From the NCBI GenBank assembly GCA_964057225.1, contig OZ059899.1:14880001-14944000 (forward strand): DNA of 64,000 nucleotides, given 5' to 3'. Shown piece by piece: positions 15,422 through 50,935 of the stretch (its first letter is position 1; each line of letters begins with the position of its first letter). A program made the translations under genes and the position numbers. Below the pieces are notes generated by a model that was not told the DNA's origin, ran no database searches, and worked only from the letters and a program-made list of their open reading frames with translations. The DNA comes from Auanema rhodensis. Its lineage: Eukaryota > Animalia > Nematoda.

Positions 15422-15507
15422 CTTGTTTTCTGTATATAAAATCTTCAAAACAAAAATTGACAGTCTCAGATTCGGCCGTTGCCAAGAGTTTAGTGTTGTA
15501 CTATGCT

Positions 15508-15959
15508 TTACAAATTGCTCATACTAGATCTTTTTTTTTTATATTTAAAATTGCCTGTGTTACATTACTGGTCTGTGATTAATTGAAAAACTCATATTTG
15601 CTTTTAAAGAGATTTATTTATACTATCAATATAATAATAAAATTTAATAAAAGTTTTTTCATAACATTGTTTTCATTACATTTTATTATAAACAAACCGC
15701 TAATTTTTACAAACAAATTTAAAATATTGAGTGAAGTTTGGTCCATTTTACAATTAAAAATTTCAAAACACGGTTGTGTTCCATTTCATTTTTCCAATTC
15801 AGATTAATCAAATTAAATGTTTCAGTGCTTACTTGATTAAAGGAGTCGAAAAAAGTTGAATAAAAATGAGAAATAATTCAAATAATTAAAAGTAAGTTAA
15901 CTAAATAAATTTCTATTTAATATAAATAAGTTTATATATTATTTTATGAAATTAATAAA
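15508..15959 (+). repeat. Left copy of a 452-bp direct duplication (myosin 3' UTR / intergenic DNA)
   Basis: Same sequence as 50179-50630 (offset 34671) apart from 2 substitutions seen (AAGGAGTC vs AAGAAGTC; TATAAATAAG vs TATAAGTAAG); identical 74-aa spurious ORFs at 15583 and 50254. Confidence 0.95.
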
Positions 15960-16254
15960 ATATTTGAACCGAATTAATGATTATCAGTGGAGCGCAACTC
16001 CAAAAAGTGTTATTCTCTGGTATGGTTTTAAAGAAAAAATATGATTAACAATAATAAATTCAGTATTATCAAACTTAAATATATGAAATCAAACCCGTAG
16101 AACCTGAAAAACAGATCAAAATTCAAAAATATGGTCAAATTAAGGAGATATAACGCCTTGAACATAGCCCTTATAGTGAGGCTATATTGCCTTAAGGTTG
16201 ATATCATATATCCATTTTTTATTTTATCATATAGTTACCAATTATATATAAATG

Positions 16255-29300: not shown

Positions 29301-32300
29301 ACTAAAATCAAATAAAAATAGTTTGAGATTGGGTATTCAGATGTGTAGAATCTGAAATTCCTGGTGAGATTTGGATACGTCTTCTGATTTTTCCGGAAAA
29401 GGGGTTTATACAGACTCCATCCACAAGATTTGTTCACAAAAAAGTTCAGGCTGTAGTCACGTTGTGCCCGGTGAATGATTGATTTCCTCAAAATTCATCT
29501 ACTAAAATCAAAAAAAAAATAGTTTTAGATTGGGTATTCAGATGTGTAGAATCTGAATTTCCTGGTGAGATTTGGGTAGGTCTTCTGATTTTTCCGGAAA
29601 AGGGGTTTATACAGACTCCATCCACAAGATTTGTTCACAAAAAAGTTCAGGCTGTAGTCACGTTGTGCCCGGTGAATGATTGATTTCCTCAAAATTCATC
29701 TACTAAAATCAAAAAAAAAATAGTTTTAGATTGGGTATTCAGATGTGTAGAATCTGAAATTCCTGGTGAGATTCGGCTAGATCTTCTGATATTTCCGGAA
29801 AAGGGGTTTATACAGACTCCATCCACAAGATTTGTTCACAAAAAAGTTCAGGCTGTAGTCACGTTGTGCCCGGTGAATGATTGATTTCCTCAAAAATCAT
29901 TTACTAAAATCAAATAAAAATAGTTTGAGATGGGGTATTCAGATGTGTAGAATCTGAAATTCCTGGTGAGATTTGGATACGTCTTCTGATTTTTCCGGAA
30001 AAGGGGTTTATACAGACTCCATCCACAAGATTTGTTCACAAAAAAGTTCAGGCTGTAGTCACGTTGTGCCCGGTGAATGATTGATTTCCTCAAAATTCAT
30101 CTACTAAAATCAAAAAAAAAATAGTTTTAGATTGGGTATTCAGATGTGTAGAATCTGAATTTCCTGGTGAGATTTGGGTAGGTCTTCTGATATTTCCGGA
30201 AAAGGGGTTTATACAGACTCCATCCACAAGATTTGTTCACAAAAAAGTTCAGGCTGTAGTCACGTTGTGCCCGGTGAATGATTGATTTCCTCAAAAATCA
30301 TTTACTAAAATCAAATAAAAATAGTTTGAGATGGGGTATTCAGATGTGTAGAATCTGAAATTCCTGGTGAGATTTGGATACGTCTTCTGATTTTTCCGGA
30401 AAAGGGGTTTATACAGACTCCATCCACAAGATTTGTTCACAAAAAAGTTCAGGCTGTAGTCACGTTGTGCCCGGTGAATGATTGATTTCCTCAAAAATCA
30501 TTTACTAAAATCAAAAAAAAAAATAGTTTTAGATTGGGTATTCAGATGTGTAGAATCTGAAATTCCTGGTGAGATTCGGCTAGATCTTCTGATATTTCCG
30601 GAAAAGGGGTTTATACAGACTCCATCCACAAGATTTGTTCACAAAAAAGTTCAGGCTGTAGTCACGTTGTGCCCGGTGAATGATTGATTTCCTCAAAATT
30701 CATCTACTAAAATCAAAAAAAAAATAGTTTTAGATTGGGTATTCAGATGTGTAGAATCTGAATTTCCTGGTGAGATTTGGGTAGGTCTTCTGATTTTTCC
30801 GGAAAAGGGGTTTATACAGACTCCATCCACAAGATTTGTTCACAAAAAAGTTCAGGCTGTAGTCACGTTGTGCCCGGTGAATGATTGATTTCCTCAAAAT
30901 TCATCTACTAAAATCAAAAAAAAAATAGTTTTAGATTGGGTATTCAGATGTGTAGAATCTGAAATTCCTGGTGAGATTCGGCTAGATCTTCTGATATTTC
31001 CGGAAAAGGGGTTTATACAGACTCCATCCACAAGATTTGTTCACAAAAAAGTTCAGGCTGTAGTCACGTTGTGCCCGGTGAATGATTGATTTCCTCAAAA
31101 ATCATTTACTAAAATCAAATAAAAATAGTTTGAGATGGGGTATTCAGATGTGTAGAATCTGAATTTTCTGGTGAGATTTGGATACGTCTTCTGATTTTTC
31201 CGGAAAAGGGGTTTATACAGACTCCATCCACAAGATTTGTTCACAAAAAAGTTCAGGCTGTAGTCACGTTGTGCCCGGTGAATGATTGATTTCCTCAAAA
31301 TTCATCTACTAAAATCAAAAAAAAAATAGTTTTAGATTGGGTATTCAGATGTGTAGAATCTGAATTTCCTGGTGAGATTTGGGTAGGTCTTCTGATTTTT
31401 CCGGAAAAGGGGTTTATACAGACTCCATCCACAAGATTTGTTCACAAAAAAGTTCAGGCTGTAGTCACGTTGTGCCCGGTGAATGATTGATTTCCTCAAA
31501 ATTCTTCTACTAAAATCAAATAAAAATAGTTTGAGATTGGGTATTCAGATGTGTAGAATCTGAAATTCCTGGTGAGATTTGGATACGTCTTCTGATTTTT
31601 CCGGAAAAGGGGTTTATACAGACTCCATCCACAAGATTTGTTCACAAAAAAGTTCAGGCTGTAGTCACGTTGTGCCCGGTGAATGATTGATTTCCTCAAA
31701 ATTCATCTACTAAAATCAAAAAAAAAATAGTTTTAGATTGGGTATTCAGATGTGTAGAATCTGAAATTCCTGGTGAGATTCGGCTAGATCTTCTGATATT
31801 TCCGGAAAAGGGGTTTATACAGACTCCATCCACAAGATTTGTTCACAAAAAAGTTCAGGCTGTAGTCACGTTGTGCCCGGTGAATGATTGATTTCCTCAA
31901 AATTCTTCTACTAAAATCAAATAAAAATAGTTTGAGATTGGGTATTCAGATGTGTAGAATCTGAAATTCCTGGTGAGATTTGGATACGTCTTCTGATTTT
32001 TCCGGAAAAGGGGTTTATACAGACTCCATCCACAAGATTTGTTCACAAAAAAGTTCAGGCTGTAGTCACGTTGTGCCCGGTGAATGATTGATTTCCTCAA
32101 AATTCATCTACTAAAATCAAAAAAAAAATAGTTTTAGATTGGGTATTCAGATGTGTAGAATCTGAATTTCCTGGTGAGATTTGGGTAGGTCTTCTGATTT
32201 TTCCGGAAAAGGGGTTTATACAGACTCCATCCACAAGATTTGTTCACAAAAAAGTTCAGGCTGTAGTCACGTTGTGCCCGGTGAATGATTGATTTCCTCA

Positions 32301-35300
32301 AAATTCTTCTACTAAAATCAAATAAAAATAGTTTGAGATTGGGTTTTCAGATGTGTAGAATCTGAAATTCCTGGTGAGATTCGGCTAGATCTTCTGATAT
32401 TTCCGGAAAAGGGGTTTATACAGACTCCATCCACAAGATTTGTTCACAAAAAAGTTCAGGCTGTAGTCACGTTGTGCCCGGTGAATGATTGATTTCCTCA
32501 AAATTCTTCTACTAAAATCAAATAAAAATAGTTTGAGATTGGGTTTTCAGATGTGTAGAATCTGAAATTCCTGGTGAGATTCGGCTAGATCTTCTGATAT
32601 TTCCGGAAAAGGGGTTTATACAGACTCCATCCACAAGATTTGTTCACAAAAAAGTTCAGGCTGTAGTCACGTTGTGCCCGGTGAATGATTGATTTCCTCA
32701 AAATTCATCTACTAAAATCAAAAAAAAAATAGTTTTAGATTGGGTATTCAGATGTGTAGAATCTGAAATTCCTGGTGAGATTCGGCTAGATCTTCTGATA
32801 TTTCCGGAAAAGGGGTTTATACAGACTCCATCCACAAGATTTGTTCACAAAAAAGTTCAGGCTGTAGTCACGTTGTGCCCGGTGAATGATTGATTTCCTC
32901 AAAAATCATTTACTAAAATCAAATAAAAATAGTTTGAGATGGGGTATTCAGATGTGTAGAATCTGAAATTCCTGGTGAGATTTGGATACGTCTTCTGATT
33001 TTTCCGGAAAAGGGGTTTATACAGACTCCATCCACAAGATTTGTTCACAAAAAAGTTCAGGCTGTAGTCACGTTGTGCCCGGTGAATGATTGATTTCCTC
33101 AAAATTCTTCTACTAAAATCAAATAAAAATAGTTTGAGATTGGGTATTCAGATGTGTAGAATCTGAAATTCCTGGTGAGATTTGGATACCTCTTCTGATT
33201 TTTCCGGAAAAGGGGTTTATACAGACTCCATCCACAAGATTTGTTCACAAAAAAGTTCAGGCTGTAGTCACGTTGTGCCCGGTGAATGATTGATTTCCTC
33301 AAAATTCATCTACTAAAATCAAAAAAAAAATAGTTTTAGATTGGGTATTCAGATGTGTAGAATCTGAATTTCCTGGTGAGATTTGGGTAGGTCTTCTGAT
33401 TTTTCCGGAAAAGGGGTTTATACAGACTCCATCCACAAGATTTGTTCACAAAAAAGTTCAGGCTGTAGTCACGTTGTGCCCGGTGAATGATTGATTTCCT
33501 CAAAATTCTTCTACTAAAATCAAATAAAAATAGTTTGAGATTGGGTATTCAGATGTGTAGAATCTGAAATTCCTGGTGAGATTCGGCTAGATCTTCTGAT
33601 ATTTCCGGAAAAGGGGTTTATACAGACTCCATCCACAAGATTTGTTCACAAAAAAGTTCAGGCTGTAGTCACGTTGTGTTCCCTGAATGTTCGCTTTTCT
33701 CAAAATTTATCTACAAAATTCAAACAAAAATAGTTTGAGGTTGGGTATTCAGATGTGTAGAATCTGAATTTTCTGGTGAGATTGGGCTAGGTCTTCTGAT
33801 TTTTCCGGAAAAGGTGTTTATACAGACTCCATCCACAAGATTTGTTCACAAAAAAGTTCAGGCTGTAGTCACGTTGTGTTCCCTGAATGTTCGCTTTTCT
33901 CAAAATTTATCTACAAAATTCAAACAAAAATAGTTTGAGGTTGGGTATTCAGATGTGTAGAATCTGAAATTCCTGGTGAGATTGGGCTAGGTCTTCTGAT
34001 TTTTCCGGAAAAGGTGTTTATACAGACTCCATCCACAAGATTTGTTCACAAAAAAGTTCAGGCTGTAGTCACGTTGTGTTCCCTGAATGTTCGCTTTTCT
34101 CAAAATTTATCTACAAAATTCAAACAAAAATAGTTTGAGGTTGGGTATTCAGATGTGTAGAATCTGAAATTCCTGGTGAGATTTGGATACGTCTTCTGAT
34201 TTTTCCGGAAAAGGGGTTTATACAGACTCCATCCACAAGATTTGTTCACAAAAAAGTTCAGGCTGTAGTCACGTTGTGCCCGGTGAATGATTGATTTCCT
34301 CAAAATTCTTCTACTAAAATCAAATAAAAATAGTTTGAGATTGGGTATTCAGATGTGTAGAATCTGAAATTCCTGGTGAGATTCGGCTAGATCTTCTGAT
34401 ATTTCCGGAAAAGGGGTTTATACAGACTCCATCCACAAGATTTGTTCACAAAAAAGTTCAGGCTGTAGTCACGTTGTGTTCCCTGAATGTTCGCTTTTCT
34501 CAAAATTTATCTACAAAATTCAAACAAAAATAGTTTGAGGTTGGGTATTCAGATGTGTAGAATCTGAATTTTCTGGTGAGATTGGGCTAGGTCTTCTGAT
34601 TTTTCCGGAAAAGGTGTTTATACAGACTCCATCCACAAGATTTGTTCACAAAAAAGTTCAGGCTGTAGTCACGTTGTGTTCCCTGAATGTTCGCTTTTCT
34701 CAAAATTTATCTACAAAATTCAAACAAAAATAGTTTGAGGTTGGGTATTCAGATGTGTAGAATCTGAAATTCCTGGTGAGATTGGGCTAGGTCTTCTGAT
34801 TTTTCCGGAAAAGGTGTTTATACAGACTCCATCCACAAGATTTGTTCACAAAAAAGTTCAGGCTGTAGTCACGTTGTGTTCCCTGAATGTTCGCTTTTCT
34901 CAAAATTTATCTACAAAATTCAAACAAAAATAGTTTGAGGTTGGGTATTCAGATGTGTAGAATCTGAAATTCCTGGTGAGATTGGGCTAGGTCTTCTGAT
35001 TTTTCCGGAAAAGGTGTTTATACAGACTCCATCCACAAGATTTGTTCACAAAAAAGTTCAGGCTGTAGTCACGTTGTGTTCCCTGAATGTTCGCTTTTCT
35101 CAAAATTCTTCTACTAAAATCAAATAAAAATAGTTTGAGATTGGGTATTCAGATGTGTAGAATCTGAAATTCCTGGTGAGATTCGGCTAGATCTTCTGAT
35201 ATTTCCGGAAAAGGGGTTTATACAGACTCCATCCACAAGATTTGTTCACAAAAAAGTTCAGGCTGTAGTCACGTTGTGTTCCCTGAATGTTCGCTTTTCT

Positions 35301-38300
35301 CAAAATTTATCTACAAAATTCAAACAAAAATAGTTTGAGGTTGGGTATTCAGATGTGTAGAATCTGAATTTTCTGGTGAGATTGGGCTAGGTCTTCTGAT
35401 TTTTCCGGAAAAGGTGTTTATACAGACTCCATCCACAAGATTTGTTCACAAAAAAGTTCAGGCTGTAGTCACGTTGTGTTCCCTGAATGTTCGCTTTTCT
35501 CAAAATTTATCTACAAAATTCAAACAAAAATAGTTTGAGGTTGGGTATTCAGATGTGTAGAATCTGAATTTCCTGGTGAGATTTGGGTAGGTCTTCTGCT
35601 TTTTCCGGAAAAGGGGTTTATAGAGACTCCATCCACAAGATTGGTTCACAAAAAAGTTCAGACTGTAGTCACGTTGTGCCCGGTGAATGATTGATTTCCT
35701 CAAAATTCATCTACTAAAATCAAATAAAAATAGTTTGAGATTGGGTATTCAGATGTGTAGAATCTGAATTTTCTAGTGAGATTCGGCTAGGTCTTCTGAT
35801 TTTTCCGGAAAAGGAGTTTATACCGACTCCATCCACAAGATTTGTTCACAAAAAAGTTCAGGCTGTAGTCATGTTGTGCCCGGTGAATGATTGATTTCCT
35901 CTAAATTCATCTACTAAAATCAAAAAAAAAATAGTTTTAGATTGGGTATTCAGATGTGTAGAATCTGAATTTCCTGGTGAGATTTGGGTAGGTCTTCTGA
36001 TTTTTCCGGAAAAGGGGTTTATACAGACTCCATCCACAAGATTTGTTCACAAAAAAGTTCAGGCTGTAGTCACGTTGTGTTCCCTGAATGTTCGCTTTTC
36101 TCAAAATTTATCTACAAAATTCAAACAAAAATAGTTTGAGGTTGGGTATTCAGATGTGTAGAATCTGAATTTCCTGGTGAGATTTGGGTAGGTCTTCTGC
36201 TTTTTCCGGAAAAGGGGTTTATACCGACTCCATCCACAAGATTTGTTCACAAAAAAGTTCAGGCTGTAGTCATGTTGTGCCCGGTGAATGATTGATTTCC
36301 TCAAAATTCATCTACTAAAATCAAATAAAAATAGTTTGAGATTGGGTATTCAGATGTGTAGAATCTGAATTTTCTGGTGAGATTCGGCTAGGTCTTCTGA
36401 TTTTTCCGGAAAAGGGGTTTATACCGACTCCATCCACAAGATTGGTTCACAAAAAAGTTCAGGCTGTAGTCACGTTGTGCCCGGTGAATGATTGATTTCC
36501 TCAAAATTCATCTACTAAAATCAAATAAAAATAGTTTGAGATTGGGTATTCAGATGTGTAGAATCTGAATTTTCTGGTGAGATTCGGCTAGGTCTTCTGA
36601 TTTTTCCGGAAAAGGGGTTTATACCGACCCCATCCACAAGATTTATTCACAAAAAAGTTCAGACTGTAGTCACGTTGTGCCCGGTGAATGATTGATTTCC
36701 TCAAAATTCTTCTACTAAAATCAAATAAAAATAGTTTGAGATTGGGTATTCAGATGTGTAGAATCTGAAATTCCTGGTGAGATTCGGCTAGATCTTCTGA
36801 TATTTCCGGAAAAGGGGTTTATACAGACTCCATCCACAAGATTTGTTCACAAAAAAGTTCAGGCTGTAGTCACGTTGTGTTCCCTGAATGTTCGCTTTTC
36901 TCAAAATTTATCTACAAAATTCAAACAAAAATAGTTTGAGGTTGGGTATTCAGATGTGTAGAATCTGAATTTCCTGGTGAGATTTGGGTAGGTCTTCTGC
37001 TTTTTCCGGAAAAGGGGTTTATACCGACTCCATCCACAAGATTGGTTCACAAAAAAGTTCAGGCTGTAGTCACGTTGTGCCCGGTGAATGATTGATTTCC
37101 TCAAAATTCATCTACTAAAATCAAATAAAAATAGTTTGAGATTGGGTATTCAGATGTGTAGAATCTGAATTTTCTGGTGAGATTCGGCTAGGTCTTCTGA
37201 TTTTTCCGGAAAAGGGGTTTATACCGACCCCATCCACAAGATTTATTCACAAAAAAGTTCAGACTGTAGTCACGTTGTGCCCGGTGAATGATTGATTTCC
37301 TCAAAAATCATTTACTAAAATCAAATAAAAATAGTTTGAGATTGGGTATTCAGATGTGTGGAATCTGAAATTCCTGGTGAGATTCCGCTAGGTCTTCTGC
37401 TTTTTCCGGAAAAGGGGTTTATACCGACTCCATCCACAAGATTGGTTCACAAAAAAGTTCAGGCTGTAGTCACGTTGTGCCCGGTGAATGATTGATTTCC
37501 TCAAAATTCATCTACTAAAATCAAATAAAAATAGTTTGAGATTGGGTATTCAGATGTGTAGAATCTGAAATTCCTGGTGAGATTTGGCTAGGTCTTCTGA
37601 TTTTTCCGGAAAAGGGGTTTATACCGACTCCATCCACAAGATTTGTTCACAAAAAAGTTCAGGCTGTAGTCACGTTGTGCCCGGTGAATGATTGATTTCC
37701 TCAAAAATCATTTACTAAAATCAAATAAAAATAGTTTGAGATTGGGTATTCAGATGTGTGGAATCTGAAATTCCTGGTGAGATTCCGCTAGGTCTTCTGA
37801 TTTTTCCGGAAAAGGGGTTTATACAGACTCCATCCACAAGATTTGTTCACAAAAAAGTTCAGGCTGTAGTCACGTTGTGCCCGGTGAATGATTGATTTCC
37901 TCAAAATTCATCTACTAAAATCAAATAAAAATAGTTTGAGATTGGGTATTCAGATGTGTGGAATCTGAAATTCCTGGTGAGATTCGGCTAGATCTTCTGA
38001 TTTTTCCGGAAAAGGGGTTTATACCGACTCCATCCACAAGATTTGTTCACAAAAAAGTTCAGGCTGTAGTCACGTTGTGCCCGGTGAATGATTGATTTCC
38101 TCAAAATTCATCTACTAAAATCAAATAAAAATAGTTTGAGATTGGGTATTCAGATGTGTGGAATCTGAAATTCCTGGTGAGATTCCGCTAGGTCTTCTGA
38201 TTTTTCCGGAAAAGGGGTTTATACCGACTCCATCCACAAGATTTGTTCACAAAAAAGTTCAGGCTGTAGTCACGTTGTGCCCGGTGAATGATTGATTTCC

Positions 38301-41300
38301 TCAAAAATCATTTACTAAAATCAAATAAAAATAGTTTGAGATTGGGTATTCAGATGTGTAGAATCTGAATTTCCTGGTGAAATTTGGCTAGGTCTTCTGC
38401 TTTTTCCGGAAAAGGGGTTTATACCGACTCCATCCACAAGATTTGTTCACAAAAAAGTTCAGGCTGTAGTCACGTTGTCCCCGGTGAATGATTGATTTCC
38501 TCAAAATTCATCTACTAAAATCAAATAAAAATAGTTGGAGATTGGGTATTCAGATGTGTAGAATCTGAAATTCCTGGTGAGATTTGGCTAGGTCTTCTGA
38601 TTTTTCCGGAAAAGGGGTTTATACCGACCCCATCCACAAGATTTGTTCACAAAAAAGTTCAGGCTGTAGTCACGTTGTCCCCGGTGAATGATTGATTTCC
38701 TCAAAATTCATCTACTAAAATCAAATAAAAATAGTTGGAGATTGGGTATTCAGATGTGTAGAATCTGAATTTTCTGGTGAGATTCGGCTAGGTCTTCTGC
38801 TTTTTCCGGAAAAGGGGTTTATACTGACTCCATCCACAAGATTTGTTCACAAAAAAGTTCAGGCTGTAGTCACGTTGTGCCCGGTGAATGATTGATTTCC
38901 TCAAAATTCATCTACTAAAATCAAATAAAAATAGTTGGAGATTGGGTATTCAGATGTGTAGAATCTGAATTTTCTGGTGAGATTCGGCTAGGTCTTCTGC
39001 TTTTTCCGGAAAACGGGTTTATACCGACTCCATCCACAAGATTTGTTCACAAAAAAGTTCAGGCTGTAGTCACGTTGTGCCCGGTGAATGATTGATTTCC
39101 TCAAAATTCATCTACTAAAATCAAATAAAAATAGTTGGAGATTGGGTATTCAGATGTGTAGAATCTGAATTTTCTGGTGAGATTCGGCTAGGTCTTCTGC
39201 TTTTTCCAGAAAAGGGGTTTATACCGACTCCATCCACAAGATTTGTTCACAAAAAAGTTCAGGCTGTAGTCACGTTGTGCCCGGTGAATGATTGATTTCC
39301 TCAAAATTCATCTACTAAAATCAAATAAAAATAGTTTGAGATTGGGTATTCAGATGTGTAGAATCTGAAATTCCTTGTGAGATTTGGCTAGGTCTTCTGC
39401 TTTTTCCGGAAAAGGGGTTTATACCGACTCCATCCACAAGATTTGTTCACAAAAAAGTTCAGGCTGTAGTCACGTTGTGCCCGGTGAATGATTGATTTCC
39501 TCAAAATTCATCTACTAAAATCAAATATAAATAGTTGGAGGTTGGGTATTCAGATGTGTAGAATCTGAATTTTCTGGTGAGATTCGGCTAGGTCTTCTGA
39601 TTTTTCCGGAAAAGGGGTTTATACTGACTCCATCCACAAGATTTGTTCACAAAAAAGTTCAGGCTGTAGTCACGTTGTGCCCGGTGAATGATTGATTTCC
39701 TCAAAATTCATCTACTAAAATCAAATATAAATAGTTGGAGGTTGGGTATTCAGATGTGTAGAATCTGAATTTTCTGGTGAGATTCGGCTAGGTCTTCTGC
39801 TTTTTCCGGAAAACGGGTTTATACCGACTCCATCCACAAGATTTGTTCACAAAAAAGTTCAGGCTGTAGTCACGTTGTGCCCGGTGAATGATTGATTTCC
39901 TCAAAATTCATCTACTAAAATCAAATAAAAATAGTTGGAGATTGGGTATTCAGATGTGTAGAATCTGAATTTTCTGGTGAGATTCGGCTAGGTCTTCTGA
40001 TTTTTCCGGAAAAGGGGTTTATACCGACTCCATCCACAAGATTTGTTCACAAAAAAGTTCAGGCTGTAGTCACGTTGTGCCCGGTGAATGATTGATTTCC
40101 TCAAAATTCATCTACTAAAATCAAATAAAAATAGTTTGAGATTGGGTATTCAGATGTGTAGAATCTGAAATTCCTTGTGAGATTTGGCTAGGTCTTCTGC
40201 TTTTTCCGGAAAAGGGGTTTATACCGACTCCATCCACAAGATTTGTTCACAAAAAAGTTCAGGCTGTAGTCACGTTGTGCCCGGTGAATGATTGATTTCC
40301 TCAAAATTCATCTACTAAAATCAAATAAAAATAGTTGGAGATTGGGTATTCAGATGTGTAGAATCTGAATTTCCTGGTGAGATTTGGGTAGGTCTTCTGC
40401 TTTTTCCGGAAAAGGGGTTTATACCGACTCCATCCACAAGATTTGTTCACAAAAAAGTTCAGGCTGTAGTCACGTTGTGCCCGGTGAATGATTGATTTCC
40501 TCAAAATTCATCTACTAAAATCAAATAAAAATAGTTTGAGATTGGGTATTCAGATGTGTAGAATCTGAAATTCCTGGTGAGATTTGGCTAGGTCTTCTGA
40601 TTTTTCCGGAAAAGGGGTTTATACCGACCCCATCCACAAGATTTATTCACAAAAAAGTTCAGACTGTAGTCACGTTGTGCCCGGTGAATGATTGATTTCC
40701 TCAAAATTCATCTACTAAAATCAAATAAAAATAGTTTGAGATTGGGTATTCAGATGTGTAGAATCTGAAATTCCTGGTGAGATTTGGCTAGGTCTTCTGA
40801 TTTTTCCGGAAAAGGGGTTTATACCGACCCCATCCACAAGATTTATTCACAAAAAAGTTCAGACTGTAGTCACGTTGTGCCCGGTGAATGATTGATTTCC
40901 TCAAAATTCATCTACTAAAATCAAATAAAAATAGTTTGAGATTGGGTATTCAGATGTGTAGAATCTGAAATTCCTGGTGAGATTTGGCTAGGTCTTCTGA
41001 TTTTTCCGGAAAAGGGGTTTATACCGACTCCATCCACAAGATTTGTTCACAAAAAAGTTCAGGCTGTAGTCACGTTGTGCCCGGTGAATGATTGATTTCC
41101 TCAAAAATCATTTACTAAAATCAAATAAAAATAGTTTGAGATTGGGTATTCAGATGTGTGGAATCTGAAATTCCTGGTGAGATTCCGCTAGGTCTTCTGA
41201 TTTTTCCGGAAAAGGGGTTTATACCGACTTCATCCACAAGATTTGTTCACAAAAAAGTTCAGGCTGTAGTCACGTTGTGCCCGGTGAATGATTAATTTCC

Positions 41301-43422
41301 TCAAAATTCATCTACTAAAATCAAATAAAAATAGTTTGAGATTGGGTATTCAGATGTGTGGAATCTGAAATTCCTGGTGAGATTCCGCTAGGTCTTCTGA
41401 TTTTTCCGGAAAAGGGGTTTATACCGACTCCATCCACAAGATTTGTTCACAAAAAAGTTCAGGCTGTAGTCACGTTGTGCCCGGTGAATGATTGATTTCC
41501 TCAAAAATCATTTACTAAAATCAAATAAAAATAGTTTGAGATTGGGTATTCAGATGTGTAGAATCTGAATTTCCTGGTGAAATTTGGCTAGGTCTTCTGC
41601 TTTTTCCGGAAAAGGGGTTTATACCGACTCCATCCACAAGATTTGTTCACAAAAAAGTTCAGGCTGTAGTCACGTTGTCCCCGGTGAATGATTGATTTCC
41701 TCAAAATTCATCTACTAAAATCAAATAAAAATAGTTGGAGATTGGGTATTCAGATGTGTAGAATCTGAATTTTCTGGTGAGATTCGGCTAGGTCTTCTGC
41801 TTTTTCCGGAAAAGGGGTTTATACTGACTCCATCCACAAGATTTGTTCACAAAAAAGTTCAGGCTGTAGTCACGTTGTGCCCGGTGAATGATTGATTTCC
41901 TCAAAATTCATCTACTAAAATCAAATAAAAATAGTTGGAGATTGGGTATTCAGATGTGTAGAATCTGAATTTTCTGGTGAGATTCGGCTAGGTCTTCTGC
42001 TTTTTCCGGAAAACGGGTTTATACCGACTCCATCCACAAGATTTGTTCACAAAAAAGTTCAGGCTGTAGTCACGTTGTGCCCGGTGAATGATTGATTTCC
42101 TCAAAATTCATCTACTAAAATCAAATAAAAATAGTTGGAGATTGGGTATTCAGATGTGTAGAATCTGAATTTTCTGGTGAGATTCGGCTAGGTCTTCTGA
42201 TTTTTCCGGAAAAGGGGTTTATACCGACTCCATCCACAAGATTTGTTCACAAAAAAGTTCAGGCTGTAGTCACGTTGTGCCCGGTGAATGATTGATTTCC
42301 TCAAAATTCATCTACTAAAATCAAACAAAAATAGTTGGAGATTGGGTATTCAGATGTGTAGAATCTGAATTTTCTGGTGAGATTCGGCTAGGTCTTCTGC
42401 TTTTTCCGGAAAACGGGTTTATACCGACTCCATCCACAAGATTTGTTCACAAAAAAGTTCAGGCTGTAGTCACGTTGTGCCCGGTGAATGATTGATTTCC
42501 TCAAAATTCATCTACTAAAATCAAATAAAAATAGTTTGAGATTGGGTATTCAGATGTGTAGAATCTGAAATTCCTTGTGAGATTTGGCTAGGTCTTCTGC
42601 TTTTTCCGGAAAAGGGGTTTATACCGACTCCATCCACAAGATTTGTTCACAAAAAAGTTCAGGCTGTAGTCACGTTGTGCCCGGTGAATGATTGATTTCC
42701 TCAAAATTCATCTACTAAAATCAAATAAAAATAGTTTGAGATTGGGTATTCAGATGTGTAGAATCTGAAATTCCTTGTGAGATTTGGCTAGGTCTTCTGC
42801 TTTTTCCGGAAAAGGGGTTTATACTGACTCCATCCACAAGATTTGTTCACAAAAAAGTTCAGGCTGTAGTCACGTTGTGCCCGGTGAATGATTGATTTCC
42901 TCAAAATTCATCTACTAAAATCAAATAAAAATAGTTTGAGATTGGGTATTCAGATGTGTAGAATCTGAAATTCCTTGTGAGATTTGGCTAGGTCTTCTGC
43001 TTTTTCCGGAAAAGGGGTTTATACCGACTCCATCCACAAGATTTGTTCACAAAAAAGTTCAGGCTGTAGTCACGTTGTGCCCGGTGAATGATTGATTTCC
43101 TCAAAATTCATCTACTAAAATCAAATATAAATAGTTGGAGGTTGGGTATTCAGATGTGTAGAATCTGAATTTTCTGGTGAGATTCGGCTAGGTCTTCTGC
43201 TTTTTCCGGAAAAGGGGTTTATACCGACTCCATCCACAAGATTTGTTCACAAAAAAGTTCAGGCTGTAGTCACGTTGTGCCCGGTGAATGATTGATTTCC
43301 TCAAAAATCATTTACTAAAATCAAATAAAAATAGTTTGAGATTGGGTATTCAGATGTGTAGAATCTGAATTTTCTGGTGAGATTCGCCTAGGTCTTCTGC
43401 TTTTTCCGGTAAAGGGGTTTAT
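17316..43422 (+). repeat. 200-bp satellite DNA array, ~130 head-to-tail monomers
   Basis: Monomer TTGGGTATTCAGATGTGTAGAATCTGAA...TTTTCCGGAAAAGGGGTTTATACCGACTCCATCCACAAG...AAAATAGTTTGAGA recurs every 199-202 bp with locally homogenised variants. Confidence 0.99.
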
Positions 43423-43593
43423 GATTTTTGCACCATTTTGTGCTTTTTAGACTCATTTTTCAACGAAAAAGTGGGTTAGCTCATCGAAAATTAGTCATTT
43501 TTGAGAAACATCACTTTTTGGGCTGAACGTAGAAGTGACCATTCTGCCCACTTTCAATTTTTTACTTGTATTTATTGTTTTTATTGCTATTAA

Positions 43594-43800
43594 ATGAGCT
43601 TTTCGCAAAATCTTAAACCTCTGACAAATTATGATCTCATTGAATTAGTAGAATTATTAAAGATTAAGAACTTCCGGAGAATCTTTATATGAAACAATTT
43701 GCCGAATGAAGAAATTAAAGAAAGAGAAGTTGGTATTGTAAAACTGGATTCGTCTGAAGGTGAAGGTACTCATTGGGTTTGTTACTACAAAAAAAACTAG
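43594..43800 (+). pseudogene. Maverick/Polinton (adintovirus)-type adenain-like cysteine protease, N-terminal fragment, copy 1
   Basis: Translates MSFSQNLKPLTNYDLIELVELLKIKNFRRIFI*NNLPNEEIKEREVGIVKLDSSEGEGTHWVCYYKKN*; fits the family pattern PLsNxDi..lkIxNFRGvFmRdxLP...ExGIvNLDsS.g.GTHWV.y with catalytic His; in-frame TGA at 43690, ends before YFDSFG and the catalytic Cys. Confidence 0.82.
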
Positions 43801-43860
43801 ATAAACTTTATTTATTTGTAAACAAATAACTTACGACAACATCTACTTTGGAACAAAGAA

Positions 43861-44913
43861 TTAAACAGTAACCGAATATTTGCACTTAAAATCATAGCCT
43901 CCAAGACGAATAGTATCATTTTTCTGCTCGACTTTGACTTCTGGGTTACAGCCGGTAATGAAATCTGTGTTGAATTTGTCCCAGAGCTTGTCGACGTCGA
44001 GTTTTGCAATATGCTCCACAAAAAATTCCACATCAGCGATGACTTCCAGAAATTCGAGTGTCGAGTGAATGTACACTGAGTCATAGACTGATCGATGCTT
44101 TCTAAATTTATTTAATAGAGTTATAAGAGAAATAAAAGAATCAAAAATAAATTAAACTATATAAGCTTATTATTAAATAACTTACTTTTCTGCTTTGACC
44201 CAGATATCGCTTAACTTCCAAAAGATATTGATGGAGATTTCGGATCGCTGAAGGCTTTGGGTAAGAGCATATCGGAAACAAAACTTGAGAGCATCGAGCG
44301 ACCTGGGATCGATTCCTGAAACCTTCAGATAAATACCTCCAATAAGCAATAAATATACACAATGTTCTAATCAGACCGTTTCCAATATTTCTCTCTATCT
44401 CTATACTCTCTCACTTTTTCACACTACTCACTAGACATTATTGGATAAGAGTGTGCGAGAGAGTAGAAAAATACTGTATACGGGCTTTGGTTGATTTTCA
44501 AAGGAGGAAAAACGTGGTGAATATATACCTTCTCCGCAGGAAAGATACAGCTTCTTCACTGCATAAACCGCAGCGAACCACGTCTTTTCAGCTGACTGGA
44601 TCAGATCTGGAGGCTTCTGGTTGAAGAAGTGGCGTGCTCGCTCGATGAAAGTACTGGCGTTGTACTTCTGTATATCCTCTTGAAAAACAAAATATTTATT
44701 CTAAAAAGTGTTTGCCAACTTGTAGTTTTATTTTTAGAAATTAGCATTCATAAAAAAAACAAAAAAAACCTTAATAAATCATACCTTGGACTCCCAGCCT
44801 TCCAAATCATCGATAGTCAGGCCTTTCTCCTTAAGCTCTACGCAGAGTTCGTCAAAATGGGCTTCATTCACACAAATCAGCTCGCGACCATTAACCAAAA
44901 ATGTTTTCGGCAT
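43861..44913 (-). CDS. Intact 4-exon, 223-aa PaREP1-like HEPN-domain protein, copy 1 (exons 44913-44785, 44700-44529, 44315-44186, 44101-43861)
   Basis: TTTTCAG just before ATG; three GT..AG introns (84, 213, 84 bp) with matching phases 0/1/2 give a 672-nt open CDS; AATAAA ~50 nt after the stop; motifs FIERARHFF..DLIQSAEKTWFAAVYAVK, WVKAEKKHRSVYD, DVEFFVEHI resemble PaREP1/HEPN consensus (recognised by eye). Confidence 0.8.
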
Positions 44914-45504
44914 ATCTGAAAACAAAACTTTAGTTATTAAACATGAACGAAAAATACAAATATTTGGTTTGAAGCGACTAGACAGTAAAACATTTAGAGA
45001 GAGGAAATTCAATCAAAGGTAAATGAAATAGCAGAAATAGTTAGGGTTAGCGTCCCCTCTAGCCCAACGCGTTTGCGTGTCGTTTTGCGTGCGTATAGTT
45101 CAACTGGAGCAAATGTGTGATTGTGCTCGATCACAGTGAGGAAGAGAAAAGAATTGTTCACAAAAAAGTTCAGGCTGTAGTCACGTTGTGCCCGGTGAAT
45201 GATTGATTTCCTCAAAAATCATTTACTAAAATCAAATAAAAATAGTTTGAGATTGGGTATTCAGATGTGTAGAATCTGAATTTTCTGGTGAGATTCGCCT
45301 AGGTCTTCTGCTTTTTCCGGTAAAGGGGTTTATGATTTTTGCACCATTTTGTGCTTTTTAGACTCATTTTTCAACGAAAAAGTGGGTTAGCTCATCGAAA
45401 ATTAGTCATTTTTGAGAAACATCACTTTTTGGGCTGAACGTAGAAGTGACCATTCTGCCCACTTTCAATTTTTTACTTGTATTTATTGTTTTTATTGCTA
45501 TTAA

Positions 45505-45711
45505 ATGAGCTTTTCGCAAAATCTTAAACCTCTGACAAATTATGATCTCATTGAATTAGTAGAATTATTAAAGATTAAGAACTTCCGGAGAATCTTTATA
45601 TGAAACAATTTGCCGAATGAAGAAATTAAAGAAAGAGAAGTTGGTATTGTAAAACTGGATTCGTCTGAAGGTGAAGGTACTCATTGGGTTTGTTACTACA
45701 AAAAAAACTAG
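45505..45711 (+). pseudogene. Maverick-type protease fragment, copy 2
   Basis: Same sequence as copy 1 at +1911 including the internal stop. Confidence 0.8.
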
Positions 45712-45771
45712 ATAAACTTTATTTATTTGTAAACAAATAACTTACGACAACATCTACTTTGGAACAAAGAA

Positions 45772-46824
45772 TTAAACAGTAACCGAATATTTGCACTTAA
45801 AATCATAGCCTCCAAGACGAATAGTATCATTTTTCTGCTCGACTTTGACTTCTGGGTTACAGCCGGTAATGAAATCTGTGTTGAATTTGTCCCAGAGCTT
45901 GTCGACGTCGAGTTTTGCAATATGCTCCACAAAAAATTCCACATCAGCGATGACTTCCAGAAATTCGAGTGTCGAGTGAATGTACACTGAGTCATAGACT
46001 GATCGATGCTTTCTAAATTTATTTAATAGAGTTATAAGAGAAATAAAAGAATCAAAAATAAATTAAACTATATAAGCTTATTATTAAATAACTTACTTTT
46101 CTGCTTTGACCCAGATATCGCTTAACTTCCAAAAGATATTGATGGAGATTTCGGATCGCTGAAGGCTTTGGGTAAGAGCATATCGGAAACAAAACTTGAG
46201 AGCATCGAGCGACCTGGGATCGATTCCTGAAACCTTCAGATAAATACCTCCAATAAGCAATAAATATACACAATGTTCTAATCAGACCGTTTCCAATATT
46301 TCTCTCTATCTCTATACTCTCTCACTTTTTCACACTACTCACTAGACATTATTGGATAAGAGTGTGCGAGAGAGTAGAAAAATACTGTATACGGGCTTTG
46401 GTTGATTTTCAAAGGAGGAAAAACGTGGTGAATATATACCTTCTCCGCAGGAAAGATACAGCTTCTTCACTGCATAAACCGCAGCGAACCACGTCTTTTC
46501 AGCTGACTGGATCAGATCTGGAGGCTTCTGGTTGAAGAAGTGGCGTGCTCGCTCGATGAAAGTACTGGCGTTGTACTTCTGTATATCCTCTTGAAAAACA
46601 AAATATTTATTCTAAAAAGTGTTTGCCAACTTGTAGTTTTATTTTTAGAAATTAGCATTCATAAAAAAAACAAAAAAAACCTTAATAAATCATACCTTGG
46701 ACTCCCAGCCTTCCAAATCATCGATAGTCAGGCCTTTCTCCTTAAGCTCTACGCAGAGTTCGTCAAAATGGGCTTCATTCACACAAATCAGCTCGCGACC
46801 ATTAACCAAAAATGTTTTCGGCAT
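45772..46824 (-). CDS. PaREP1-like HEPN protein, copy 2 (exons 46824-46696, 46611-46440, 46226-46097, 46012-45772)
   Basis: Same exon-intron structure and protein as copy 1. Confidence 0.8.
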
Positions 46825-47415
46825 ATCTGAAAACAAAACTTTAGTTATTAAACATGAACGAAAAATACAAATATTTGGTTTGAAGCGACTAGACAGTAAA
46901 ACATTTAGAGAGAGGAAATTCAATCAAAGGTAAATGAAATAGCAGAAATAGTTAGGGTTAGCGTCCCCTCTAGCCCAACGCGTTTGCGTGTCGTTTTGCG
47001 TGCGTATAGTTCAACTGGAGCAAATGTATGATTGTGCTCGATCACAGTGAGGAAGAGAAAAGAATTGTTCACAAAAAAGTTCAGGCTGTAGTCACGTTGT
47101 GCCCGGTGAATGATTGATTTCCTCAAAAATCATTTACTAAAATCAAATAAAAATAGTTTGAGATTGGGTATTCAGATGTGTAGAATCTGAATTTTCTGGT
47201 GAGATTCGCCTAGGTCTTCTGCTTTTTCCGGTAAAGGGGTTTATGATTTTTGCACCATTTTGTGCTTTTTAGACTCATTTTTCAACGAAAAAGTGGGTTA
47301 GCTCATCGAAAATTAGTCATTTTTGAGAAACATCACTTTTTGGGCTGAACGTAGAAGTGACCATTCTGCCCACTTTCAATTTTTTACTTGTATTTATTGT
47401 TTTTATTGCTATTAA

Positions 47416-47622
47416 ATGAGCTTTTCGCAAAATCTTAAACCTCTGACAAATTATGATCTCATTGAATTAGTAGAATTATTAAAGATTAAGAACTTCCGGA
47501 GAATCTTTATATGAAACAATTTGCCGAATGAAGAAATTAAAGAAAGAGAAGTTGGTATTGTAAAACTGGATTCGTCTGAAGGTGAAGGTACTCATTGGGT
47601 TTGTTACTACAAAAAAAACTAG
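47416..47622 (+). pseudogene. Maverick-type protease fragment, copy 3
   Basis: Same sequence as copy 1 at +3822. Confidence 0.8.
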
Positions 47623-47682
47623 ATAAACTTTATTTATTTGTAAACAAATAACTTACGACAACATCTACTTTGGAACAAAGAA

Positions 47683-48736
47683 TTAAACAGTAACCGAATA
47701 TTTGCACTTAAAATCATAGCCTCCAAGACGAATAGTATCATTTTTCTGCTCGACTTTGACTTCTGGGTTACAGCCGGTAATGAAATCTGTGTTGAATTTG
47801 TCCCAGAGCTTGTCGACGTCGAGTTTTGCAATATGCTCCACAAAAAATTCCACATCAGCGATGACTTCCAGAAATTCGAGTGTCGAGTGAATGTACACTG
47901 AGTCATAGACTGATCGATGCTTTCTAAATTTATTTAATAGAGTTATAAGAGAAATAAAAGAATCAAAAATAAATTAAACTATATAAGCTTATTATTAAAT
48001 AACTTACTTTTCTGCTTTGACCCAGATATCGCTTAACTTCCAAAAGATATTGATGGAGATTTCGGATCGCTGAAGGCTTTGGGTAAGAGCATATCGGAAA
48101 CAAAACTTGAGAGCATCGAGCGACCTGGGATCGATTCCTGAAACCTTCAGATAAATACCTCCAATAAGCAATAAATATACACAATGTTCTAATCAGACCG
48201 TTTCCAATATTTCTCTCTATCTCTATACTCTCTCACTTTTTCACACTACTCACTAGACATTATTGGATAAGAGTGTGCGAGAGAGTAGAAAAATACTGTA
48301 TACGGGCTTTGGTTGATTTTCAAAGGAGGAAAAACGTGGTGAATATATACCTTCTCCGCAGGAAAGATACAGCTTCTTCACTGCATAAACCGCAGCGAAC
48401 CACGTCTTTTCAGCTGACTGGATCAGATCTGGAGGCTTCTGGTTGAAGAAGTGGCGTGCTCGCTCGATGAAAGTACTGGCGTTGTACTTCTGTATATCCT
48501 CTTGAAAAACAAAATATTTATTCTAAAAAGTGTTTGCCAACTTGTAGTTTTATTTTTAGAAATTAGCATTCATAAAAAAAACAAAAAAAAACCTTAATAA
48601 ATCATACCTTGGACTCCCAGCCTTCCAAATCATCGATAGTCAGGCCTTTCTCTTCAAACTTTACTCGGAGTTCATCAAAACGGGCTTCATTCACACAAAT
48701 CAGCTCGTCACCATCAACCAAAAATGTTTTCGGCAT
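47683..48736 (-). CDS. PaREP1-like HEPN protein, copy 3 with divergent exon 1 (exons 48736-48608, 48522-48351, 48137-48008, 47923-47683)
   Basis: Open and spliceable like copy 1; exon 1 reads MPKTFLVDGDELICVNEARFDELRVKFEEKGLTIDDLEGWESK. Confidence 0.8.
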
Positions 48737-48976
48737 ATCTGAAAACAAAACTTTAGTTATTAAACATGAACGAAAAATACAAATATTTGGTTTGAAGCGA
48801 CTAGACAGTAAAACATTTAGAGAGAGGAAATTCAATCAAAGGTAAATGAAATAGCAGAAATAGTTAGGGTTAGCGTCCCCTCTAGCCCAACGCGTTTGCG
48901 TGTCGTTTTGCGTGCGTATAGTTCAACTGGAGCAAATGTGTGATTGTGCTCGATCACAGTGAGGAAGAGAAAAGAA

Positions 48977-50157
48977 TTGTTCACAAAAAAGTTCAGGCTG
49001 TAGTCATGTTGTGCCCGGTGAATGATTGATTTACTCAAAAATCATTTACTAAAATCAAATAAAAACAGTTTGAGATTGGGTATTCAGATGTGTAGAATCT
49101 GAATTTTCTGGTGAGATTCGCCTAGGTCTTCTGCTTTTTCCGGAAAAGGGGTTTATACCGACTCCATCCACAAGATTTGTTCACAAAAAAGTTCAGGCTG
49201 TAGTCACGTTGTTCCCGGTGAATGATTGATTTTTTCAAAACTCATCTACAAAATTCAAACAAAAATAGTTTGACGTTGGGTATTCAGATGTGTAGAATCT
49301 GAATTTTTTGGTGAGATTCGGCTAGGTCTTCTGCTTTTTCCGGAAAAGGGGTTTATACCGAGACCATCCACAAGATTTGTTCACAAAAAAGTTTAGGCTT
49401 TAGTCACGTTCTGTTCCCTGAATGTTCGCTTTTCTCAAAATTCATCCACAAAATTCAAACAAAAATAGTTTGACGTTGGGTATTCAGATGTGTAGAATCT
49501 GAATTTTTTGGTGAGATTCGGCTAGGTCTTCTGCTTTTTCCGGAAAAGGGGTTTATACCGAGACCATCCACAAGATTTGTTCACAAAAAAGTTTAGGCTT
49601 TAGTCACGTTCTGTTCCCTGAATGTTCGCTTTTCTCAAAATTCATCCACAAAATTCAAACAAAAATAGTTTGACGTTGGGTATTCAGATGTGTAGAATCT
49701 GAATTTTCTGGTGAGATTCGGCTAGGTCTTCTGCTTTTTCCGGAAAAGGGGTTTATACCGACCCCATCCACAAGATTTGTTCACAAAAAAGTTCAGGCTG
49801 TAGTCACGTTTGGCCCGGTGAATGATTGATTTACTCAAAAATCATTTACTAAAATCAAATAAAAATAGTTTGACGTTGGGTATTCAGATGTGTAGAATCT
49901 GAATTTTCTGGTGAAATTCGGCTAGGTCTTCTGATTTTTCCGGAAAAGGGGTTTATACCGACTCCATCCACAAGATTTGTTCACAAAAAAGTTCAGGCTG
50001 TAGTCACGTTGTGCCCGGTGAATGATTGATTTACTGAAAAATCATTTACTAAAACCAAATAAAAATAGTTTGAGACTGGGTATTCAGATGTGTAGATTCT
50101 GAATTTCCTGGTGAGATTTGGTTACGAATTCTGTTTTTTCCGGAAAAGGGGTTTATA
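48977..50157 (+). repeat. Terminal block of ~6 more diverged 200-bp satellite monomers
   Basis: Same monomer with private variants (TTTGACGTTGGG, GAGACCATCC, TTTAGGCTTTAG); stops at ...AAAGGGGTTTATA. Confidence 0.97.
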
Positions 50158-50178: not shown

Positions 50179-50630
50179 TTACAAATTGCTCATACTAGAT
50201 CTTTTTTTTTTATATTTAAAATTGCCTGTGTTACATTACTGGTCTGTGATTAATTGAAAAACTCATATTTGCTTTTAAAGAGATTTATTTATACTATCAA
50301 TATAATAATAAAATTTAATAAAAGTTTTTTCATAACATTGTTTTCATTACATTTTATTATAAACAAACCGCTAATTTTTACAAACAAATTTAAAATATTG
50401 AGTGAAGTTTGGTCCATTTTACAATTAAAAATTTCAAAACACGGTTGTGTTCCATTTCATTTTTCCAATTCAGATTAATCAAATTAAATGTTTCAGTGCT
50501 TACTTGATTAAAGAAGTCGAAAAAAGTTGAATAAAAATGAGAAATAATTCAAATAATTAAAAGTAAGTTAACTAAATAAATTTCTATTTAATATAAGTAA
50601 GTTTATATATTATTTTATGAAATTAATAAA
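50179..50630 (+). repeat. Right copy of the 452-bp direct duplication
   Basis: Matches 15508-15959. Confidence 0.95.
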
Positions 50631-50935
50631 TTATTCGAATACGATATTCAGATTTTGTGCCTGTTAAACTTCTTTATTTAGAAATGAAATATTATGTCAA
50701 AGCAAGAATGTTACCCACTAATAGTTTGAACAAGTTGAACGAAATTTGAAAAGTAGTAACTCTGCTTGATTTCATTACTAAATTGGGAAAATGTACGTGA
50801 AGCGCCGTTTCCTATTCAACATCAATATTTTTGTGGGTGAAGTCCTAAGCATAGAAGTCTATTGAAGTTACTCCATGTGACCAGTATGTTTCTAACATTT
50901 TTCTTTTAAAAACCCATTATTACTTTTATAGATTT

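What the first reader, a model, noticed from the sequence alone, without database searches (positions are those of the whole stretch)
43861..48736. Hidden spliced PaREP1-like HEPN gene amplified three times inside a satellite array
Seen: joining four minus-strand exons at canonical nematode splice sites gives an uninterrupted 223-aa ORF (MPKTFLVNG...NKYFVFQEDIQKYNASTFIERARHFFNQKPPDLIQSAEKTWFAAVYAVKKLYLSCGEGIDPRSLDALKFCFRYALTQSLQRSEISINIFWKLSDIWVKAEKKHRSVYDSVYIHSTLEFLEVIADVEFFVEHIAKLD...SVTV*), with acceptor before the ATG and AATAAA after the stop, intact in all 3 copies while the neighbouring protease is dead. Knowledge: DxxQAxEKxWxAAxxAVK followed by WxxAxxLHxxxY(E/D) is the pattern of the PaREP1 branch of the HEPN superfamily, best known from archaea/bacteria; HEPN domains are often RNase toxins or nucleotide-binding modules in conflict systems. 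The conserved His is present (KAEKKH, K-x4-H instead of R-x4-6-H), so catalytic activity is uncertain. Inference: a horizontally acquired, intron-gaining HEPN-type effector in a nematode, possibly a selfish toxin, antiviral RNase or satellite-RNA-processing factor.
Basis: partly seen in the sequence, partly recalled or inferred. Interest (0 to 1): 0.92.

Follow-up and report, generated by a model that had tools for sequence, protein, structure and literature searches.

The report
Species-hopping HEPN gene in nematode satellite
A nematode satellite array holds three copies of a spliced, transcribed gene from an RNase-like (HEPN) family already reported in worms; the family likely moves between worm species on virus-like transposons, and this copy is likely a weakened remnant.

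Summary
The gene is real: three copies of a 1.7-kb cassette, four exons, 223 codons, with introns joined in transcript-type contigs of 4 of 4 runs. It belongs to a nematode PaREP1-like HEPN family: 4 of 19 relatives pass Pfam's PaREP1 cut-off, and a relative's model matches HEPN-T structures best. The headline is not new: a 2013 paper already reports PaREP1/8 HEPN acquired by Caenorhabditis (PMC3710099). 'Intact' is overstated: intron 1 uses an out-of-frame acceptor in 3 of 4 runs, and a His kept by 25 of 29 relatives is lost. Not found in print: the family spans six nematode genera; C. briggsae and C. auriculariae copies match at 51 of 51 aligned residues; this gene's GC3 is twice its neighbours'; and it abuts a broken reading frame resembling a Maverick/Polinton protease (recalled motif, unconfirmed by any search). 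Best reading: a horizontally mobile HEPN gene, likely Maverick cargo, stranded and attenuated in a satellite and tripled by unequal exchange. Nothing supports satellite-RNA processing or shows toxicity.

The parts
47683..48736 (-). HEPN gene copy 1; exons 48736-48608, 48522-48351, 48137-48008, 47923-47683; carries a divergent 63-bp tract in exon 1 (48715-48653)
45772..46824 (-). HEPN gene copy 2; exons 46824-46696, 46611-46440, 46226-46097, 46012-45772
43861..44913 (-). HEPN gene copy 3; exons 44913-44785, 44700-44529, 44315-44186, 44101-43861; transcript contigs match this copy-2/3 type
44678..44700 (-). Two competing intron-1 acceptors: exon 2 starting at 44700 (in frame, adds 7 residues that the closest full-length relatives lack) or at 44678 (out of frame, stop after 68 aa). 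The acceptor used by relatives appears to be lost near 44680.
44915..44921 (-). Likely trans-splice acceptor just before the ATG: contigs of X14 and X15 run 6 nt past it with one other letter and then end, as a spliced-leader end would (inferred; the letters are not displayed)
43594..43797 (+). Broken frame, tail-to-tail with the HEPN gene, resembling the N-terminal half of a Maverick/Polinton adenovirus-like protease (recalled motif, unconfirmed). It has a premature stop at 43690-43692 and ends near 43800. Same frame in the other cassettes at about 45505-45708 and 47416-47619.
   Evidence: no database match
43423..45148 (-). Cassette 3 (1,726 bp, non-satellite)
45334..47059 (-). Cassette 2 (1,726 bp)
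47245..48971 (-). Cassette 1 (1,727 bp)
45149..45333 (.). Partial satellite monomer between cassettes (same at 47060-47244); repeat unit 1,911 bp
17316..43422 (.). 200-bp satellite, 130.5 copies, 96% matches
48972..50157 (.). 200-bp satellite, 5.9 copies
15508..15968 (+). Left copy of a 461-bp direct duplication (99.1%, 4 mismatches) that brackets the whole 34-kb block, just after a myosin gene
50179..50639 (+). Right copy of the 461-bp duplication, just before a TTC5-like gene

Best explanation
This is a spliced, transcribed, three-copy member of a nematode family of stand-alone PaREP1-like HEPN genes that likely moves between nematode species, likely as cargo of Maverick/Polinton elements, and this copy is likely an attenuated remnant. 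Shown: gene structure, splicing, three copies, family membership, HEPN fold of a relative, two competing acceptors, loss of one conserved His, foreign-looking GC3. Inferred steps: (1) Family members are likely dimeric, metal-independent RNases or RNA binders that use the helix-3 His plus a second conserved His, as proposed for HEPN-T. (2) A mobile element carried the gene into this genome; what is left is the gene and a protease-like stub. (3) The 1.7-kb piece was inserted into one satellite monomer, replacing about 20 bp, and was tripled by unequal exchange between flanking monomers, recently, since the cassettes are otherwise near-identical. (4) Loss of the ancestral intron-1 acceptor sends most transcripts out of frame, and the in-frame product lacks the second His, so RNase output is likely low. 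(5) The exon-1 tract in copy 1 likely came by conversion from another allele or paralogue.
For: Splicing. Family: the window's in-frame model scores 203 bits over all 205 positions of a profile built from 17 relatives without it and is 49% identical to the best relative over 227 columns. HEPN: 13 of 17 relatives hit PaREP1 at E<=0.05; 4 of 19 pass the curated cut-off. The model of relative P0002 (pLDDT 87.7) has the four best Foldseek rows in 2q00/2hsb/2jpu (E 0.004-0.07) and VIA Z 12.2 to 2hsb (rmsd 3.1, 116 aligned) and 9.3 to 2jpu. 2q00 is the PaREP1/8 structure named in PMC3710099. Mobility: C. briggsae CBG02910 and C. auriculariae CAD6190801.1 are identical at 51 of 51 aligned residues, including a 13-residue stretch that reads as an off-frame translation (labels). 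This species pair also shares near-identical Maverick-borne proteases (10.1101/2022.07.12.499685 section 8). Two starred cross-lineage pairs appear in the tree (100/99 and C. bovis+Auanema 95/89). GC3 is 111 of 223 codons against 145 of 554 in neighbouring host exons, Fisher p=5e-10; Maverick cargo is described as GC-rich and intron-bearing. [quoted passage not shown] Decay. Amplification: junctions and differences; contig depth over the cassette is about 3-5 times that over TTC5 in X1, X7, X9 (a weak measure, and X1 may be the source sample).
Against: The Maverick link rests on a recalled protease motif: Pfam, PHROGs, IMG/VR and PDB gave no match. The capsid-like tail of one Heterorhabditis gene model (P0017) was not confirmed either (model pLDDT 36). 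No terminal repeats, polymerase, integrase or capsid gene were recognised in the window. [quoted passage not shown] No genomic context of any relative could be read. The cross-species identity rests on 51 residues of faulty gene models without DNA. Only 8 of 28 inner branches are starred, and the window protein's place is unresolved. High GC3 can reflect codon selection. Helix-3 His146, Glu81/Lys82, Trp84 and 35 of 39 conserved columns are kept, and X15 shows only the in-frame form, so the gene may still work. Full-length Foldseek E-values are all above 0.001, and helical bundles reach Z about 13 by chance. X11 shows no depth excess, at low coverage. No activity was measured.
Confidence: 0.5

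Rival explanations
1. Host defence gene: an old, mostly vertically inherited nematode HEPN family under birth-and-death evolution, acting as an antiviral or anti-transposon RNase or RNA sensor, with the triplication kept for dosage.
For: Proposed for Caenorhabditis PaREP1/8 expansions in PMC3710099. The family reaches Ditylenchus and Panagrolaimus, whose paralogues group by genus (starred). The gene is transcribed, and its ORF stays open while the adjacent frame is broken.
Against: 51 of 51 identity across distant Caenorhabditis species; foreign GC3; location inside a 34-kb block bracketed by a 99% duplication; out-of-frame splicing in 3 of 4 runs.
Confidence: 0.2
2. Horizontally mobile, but carried by another vector (a DDE transposon, MULE or Helitron) or by sporadic transfer; the protease-like frame is incidental.
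For: No search confirmed any Maverick part. The C. briggsae gene model CBG02910 runs into a transposase-like sequence (recalled; Pfam blank). MULE capture of Maverick cargo is published. A 461-bp duplication is unlike the 5-8 bp Polinton target duplication.
Against: The frame beside the gene reads like Polinton PRO over 68 codons (recalled). The host range overlaps that of Maverick cargo.
Confidence: 0.15
3. Active selfish toxin of a toxin-antidote element: a maternally or paternally loaded RNase kills offspring that lack the locus, and the mis-splicing limits its dose.
For: Maverick cargo gave rise to the toxin msft-1, whose toxicity is dose-sensitive. HEPN domains are toxins in prokaryotic modules. 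The block looks like a recent insertion.
Against: No antidote gene was recognised in the cassette or in the 34-kb block. No expression stage or cross data. The second His is lost. No paper holds toxin-antidote + Caenorhabditis + HEPN.
Confidence: 0.1
4. Satellite-RNA processing factor kept beside its substrate.
For: Position only.
Against: The satellite is covered more than a thousand-fold deeper than TTC5 in DNA runs, so it is genome-wide (summed contigs). The cassette interrupts a monomer like an insertion. Nothing links relatives to this satellite.
Confidence: 0.03

Closest known systems
HEPN-T (PaREP1/8) family, Pfam PF05942, PDB 2q00/2jpu
   Same: Helical core; His without the Arg of Rx4-6H; best Pfam, Atlas, PDB-profile and Foldseek hit for relatives.
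   Different: Adds an N-terminal segment of about 45 aa (two strands, helix, strand, helix) and a C-terminal helix plus beta-hairpin. It has introns and no MNT partner gene in the cassette. The window's exon 2 alone scores 14 bits, under the cut-off of 24.4.
Caenorhabditis PaREP1/8 HEPN expansions (Anantharaman et al. 2013, PMC3710099)
   Same: Same family in the same animals. The helicase-fused form described there is among the relatives found here (C. remanei P0029/P0051: DEAD plus PaREP1 hits).
   Different: Stand-alone. The family is found in six genera rather than only Caenorhabditis, with signs of nematode-to-nematode transfer. The paper's additional file was held only as 4,325 characters with no hit, so stand-alone members may already be listed there.
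Maverick cargo families WASP (WOSP in the journal version, recalled) and KRMA; msft-1/tlpr-1 (bioRxiv 10.1101/2022.07.12.499685)
   Same: Intron-bearing, GC-rich, patchy, near-identical between distant species including C. briggsae and C. auriculariae. A small N-terminal module that varies apart from the catalytic domain is reported there and hinted at here.
   Different: HEPN instead of protease or kinase. No ubiquitin-like domain shown. No intact element, TIR or antidote found. Position beside a protease-like stub rather than between TIR and integrase.

Membership tests
HEPN superfamily | All-alpha two-hairpin core of about 100-120 aa | tested here: met
   Tested on relative P0002 (49% identical), not on the window protein itself: residues 43-165 align to 2hsb at Z 12.2, rmsd 3.1, 116 aligned; the top seven VIA rows (Z>=8) include 2hsb, 1wol, sacsin HEPN 3o10, 2jpu, 4nqf
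HEPN superfamily | Canonical Rx4-6H RNase motif | tested here: not met
   His146 present (23 of 26 relatives), no conserved Arg upstream; this is the documented state of PaREP1/8
HEPN superfamily | RNase activity; dimer with composite site (dimer requirement recalled) | not testable with these tools
   No assay possible
PaREP1/8 (PF05942) | Score at or above Pfam's curated cut-off (24.4 bits) | tested here: inconclusive
   Met by 4 of 19 relatives; window exon 2 alone 14 bits, E 0.047, other 3 of 4 exons no hit; the full spliced product was not scanned against Pfam
PaREP1/8 (PF05942) | His kept, Arg lost, other conserved basic residues | tested here: met
   His146, Lys82 (28 of 29), Lys92 (28 of 30) kept (definition)
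Nematode stand-alone PaREP1-like family | Full-length match to a profile of relatives | tested here: met
   203 bits, positions 1-204 of 205; 35 of 39 conserved columns kept
Nematode stand-alone PaREP1-like family | Second conserved His in the loop after helix 2 (possible alternative catalytic residue) | tested here: not met
   His in 25 of 29 relatives, absent at window position 107
Maverick/Polinton cargo | Maverick core gene within 6 kb | tested here: inconclusive
   Protease-like broken frame ends about 60 bp from the stop codon, recognised from memory only; no database match
Maverick/Polinton cargo | Terminal inverted repeats and 5-8 bp target duplication | tested here: inconclusive
   A satellite-masked self-BLAST listed direct repeats and a 461-bp direct duplication, no terminal inverted pair; no dedicated inverted-repeat search was run, and a remnant would have lost them
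Maverick/Polinton cargo | Near-identity between distant species; GC above host | tested here: met
   51 of 51 residues C. briggsae vs C. auriculariae (protein level only); GC3 0.50 vs 0.26
Maverick/Polinton cargo | Family-wide association with Mavericks in genomes | not testable with these tools
   No nematode genomes are held; contig scans found no true relative
Nematode toxin-antidote element | Linked antidote and parental-effect killing | not testable with these tools
   No antidote candidate recognised in the cassette; needs crosses

The most novel reading that the evidence does not exclude
A third class of Maverick cargo in nematodes: a prokaryote-derived HEPN RNase that virus-like transposons still shuttle between worm genera, with a swappable N-terminal module, and that hosts defuse by splice-acceptor decay. 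It would be raw material for RNase-based selfish toxins or borrowed antiviral defence.
Probability: 0.4. Interest if true: 0.8.

Novelty: new variant of a known kind. Interest (0 to 1): 0.5.

Why it matters
The 2013 proposal that worm PaREP1-type HEPN proteins act in defence has, in the papers searched, not been followed up. A small, expressed, stand-alone member that sits in what looks like a recent insertion makes it testable by knock-out and crosses. If the Maverick link holds, it extends the only known vector of animal-to-animal gene transfer in nematodes from proteases and kinases to a nuclease, and gives a two-step route from prokaryote to nematode to other nematodes. If it does not, this is an ordinary decaying paralogue of a known family, amplified by a satellite.

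Tried and rejected
No own genome is held. Contig scans with the family alignment: viral 0 of 74 pattern hits; metagenomes 1 of 41, L001, which is a bacterial locus with the hit in an unrelated amidotransferase-like ORF (label recalled); GTDB 0 of 35 and 1 of 22 with P0037, L002, in a sugar-kinase-like ORF (label recalled) that the family profile does not score. Both were dropped, so a prokaryote-nested phylogeny was not tested; none of the named relatives is prokaryotic. BFVD gave no match under E 0.17. The PDB sequence search gave only 2jpu/2q00 at E 0.2 and four designed proteins. Homodimer prediction for P0002: no answer (score 0.12, mark 0.32), no evidence either way. Protease-like frame: no match in Pfam, PHROGs, IMG/VR or PDB; its identity stays open. 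P0017 tail: Atlas gave trypsin clusters with a low feature share (116 of 256), judged unreliable; nothing; the single-sequence model was too poor to search. Positive selection on the exon-1 tract: about 8 replacement to 3 silent changes by my parsimony count, compatible with neutrality, so not claimed. No listed holder is on record as RNA; the four guessed-RNA runs were laid and show spliced joints. Earlier scan findings: none. Literature blanks: HEPN+nematode+Maverick 0 papers; toxin-antidote+Caenorhabditis+HEPN 0; 'HEPN' 0 times in 10.1101/2023.08.22.554363; listings showed nothing further on point by title. Most subscription papers are not in the library.
Full report
Observation. The region holds three head-to-tail copies of a 1,911-bp unit, 99.2-99.5% identical. 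Each is a 1,726-1,727-bp cassette plus a partial monomer of a 200-bp satellite that runs 130.5 copies to the left and 5.9 to the right. Joining four minus-strand exons at GT-AG sites gives 223 codons in 3 of 3 copies, with an acceptor 2 nt before the ATG and AATAAA 44 nt after the stop. The whole 34-kb block (15969-50178) lies between a myosin gene and a TTC5-like gene (Pfam Myosin_head E 5e-29, TTC5_OB E 1.2e-7) and is bracketed by a 461-bp direct duplication with 4 mismatches. It therefore looks like a recent insertion (inference).

Splicing. Four public runs of one study, guessed to be RNA, were laid on copy 3. Introns 2 and 3 are skipped exactly in 4 of 4. The 106-nt form shifts the frame and stops after 68 aa, 72 nt before the next junction. 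The closest full-length relatives lack the 7 residues that the 84-nt form adds, so the acceptor they use appears to be lost here and both present acceptors are likely substitutes (inference). DNA contigs of X1, X7 and X11 match the window across this site without other letters, so it is not an assembly error. Contigs drop rare forms and give no true isoform ratios. Two contigs extend 6 nt past the 5' acceptor with one other letter, as a trans-spliced leader would (inferred). The transcript contigs match the copy-2/3 type of exon 1.

Family. Exon 2 found a C. bovis protein. From it, searches gave 8, 45 and 13 proteins, 57 in all with cluster members. The named ones come from six nematode genera: Caenorhabditis (bovis, sp. 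36, angaria, remanei, briggsae, auriculariae), Auanema, Mesorhabditis, Heterorhabditis, Panagrolaimus and Ditylenchus; the rest are unnamed. UniRef already labels three 'HEPN domain-containing protein'. The window model is 49% identical to the best relative and scores 203 bits over the full family profile. Several database fragments stop or start at the window's exon ends, which suggests the introns are as old as the family.

HEPN assignment. PaREP1 is hit by 13 of 17 aligned relatives at E<=0.05 and passed at the curated cut-off by 4 of 19. The window's exon 2 alone gives E 0.047, under the cut-off, and the other 3 exons give nothing. The AlphaFold model of relative P0002 (pLDDT 87.7) ranks 2q00, 2hsb and 2jpu first in Foldseek, though none under E 0.001. 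In VIA-align it scores Z 12.2 to 2hsb and 8.9-10.2 to six further chains, including sacsin HEPN and 2jpu. The Atlas's top hits are PaREP1 clusters (0.86, 181 of 256 features). The window protein itself was not folded. It keeps 35 of 39 columns conserved in at least 70% of relatives, including His146, but lacks the His found in 25 of 29 at position 107. PMC3710099 (passages; section 6 in full; supplement search empty) defines PaREP1/8 as His without Arg and notes that a second, more N-terminal His may serve catalysis in some HEPN-T families. It also states that a PaREP1/8 member of crenarchaeal origin was acquired by Caenorhabditis, expanded in C. elegans and C. remanei, is sometimes fused to an inactive Vasa-like ATPase domain, and may be inactive.

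Mobility. C. briggsae CBG02910 and C. auriculariae CAD6190801.1 are identical at 51 of 51 aligned residues in two blocks, one of which reads as an off-frame translation. A second C. briggsae record shares the first 39 residues and 9 more. The briggsae gene stands in three records on 16.6-16.7-Mb contigs. The tree (30 of 57 fetched proteins plus the window; most short fragments left out; no outgroup) stars this pair (100/99) and C. bovis + Auanema (95/89), but only 8 of 28 inner branches are starred and the window's place is open. GC3 is 111 of 223 against 145 of 554 in 11 hand-picked host exon stretches (p=5e-10). The preprint 10.1101/2022.07.12.499685 (passages; sections 8 and 13; supplements not seen) reports the same pattern for Maverick cargo, including near-identity between C. 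briggsae and C. auriculariae, high GC, introns and modular N-termini. Tail-to-tail with the HEPN gene lies a broken 68-codon frame (43594-43797) that reads to me like the first half of a Polinton adenovirus-like protease. That is recall: Pfam, PHROGs, IMG/VR and PDB gave no match. A Heterorhabditis gene model, P0017, joins the family's last exon to a stretch that I recall as minor-capsid-like; this too was unconfirmed. No relative's genomic context could be read. The Maverick step is therefore the weakest link. 10.1101/2023.08.22.554363 (passages) lists PRO as a Polinton core gene and does not mention HEPN.

Amplification. The cassette interrupts one satellite monomer and replaces about 20 bp of it; unequal exchange between monomers explains three copies (inference). 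Copies 2 and 3 differ at 1 position; copy 1 differs by 11 substitutions within 63 bp of exon 1 and one indel, which points to conversion from another allele. Contig depth over the cassette is about 3-5 times that over TTC5 in X1, X7 and X9 and about equal in low-coverage X11. The satellite is over a thousand times deeper, so it is genome-wide. The tool warns that depth is no copy number.

Verdict. A real, expressed gene of a known kind, probably past its prime at this locus. What lifts it above routine is the evidence that the stand-alone family crosses species boundaries and may ride Mavericks, which my searches did not find in print. Best explanation 0.5; interest 0.5; novel case 0.4 likely, 0.8 if true.

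Noticed in passing
window 15508-15968 and 50179-50639: 461-bp direct duplication (4 mismatches) brackets a 34-kb block of satellite plus cassettes between a myosin gene and a TTC5-like gene; far longer than a transposon target duplication, so the insertion mechanism is unexplained.
   Followed up: partly
window 16366-17315: GC-rich 15-bp repeat (54.7 copies, 82% matches) with long open frames of acidic or Arg/Gly repeats at the left end of the inserted block, running straight into the satellite; only a sub-threshold low-complexity Pfam hit.
   Followed up: partly
window 48653-48715: Eleven of the 13 differences among the three cassettes fall in 63 bp of exon 1 of copy 1; both versions carry some family-typical residues.
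   Followed up: partly
window 43423-43560: The cassette's 3' end is a dispersed repeat: contigs from other places match it with several other letters and a loose end.
   Followed up: no
window 44316-44528: Intron 2 (213 nt) is more GC-rich than the other introns (0.35 vs 0.21 and 0.14) and, by eye, contains an imperfect inverted repeat, possibly a small inserted element.
   Followed up: no
P0016/P0055 (C. briggsae CBG02910), P0010, P0048: Several database gene models fuse family members to neighbours (a transposase-like sequence, a DNA helicase, an SMC fragment), likely annotation artefacts of insertions next to other genes.
   Followed up: no
window 3279-5244 (-), 10770-15430 (+), 50930-52765 (+): Host genes: an SNF-family transporter, a class I-type myosin with an SH3-like tail (class recalled), and a TTC5-like gene.
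   Followed up: partly
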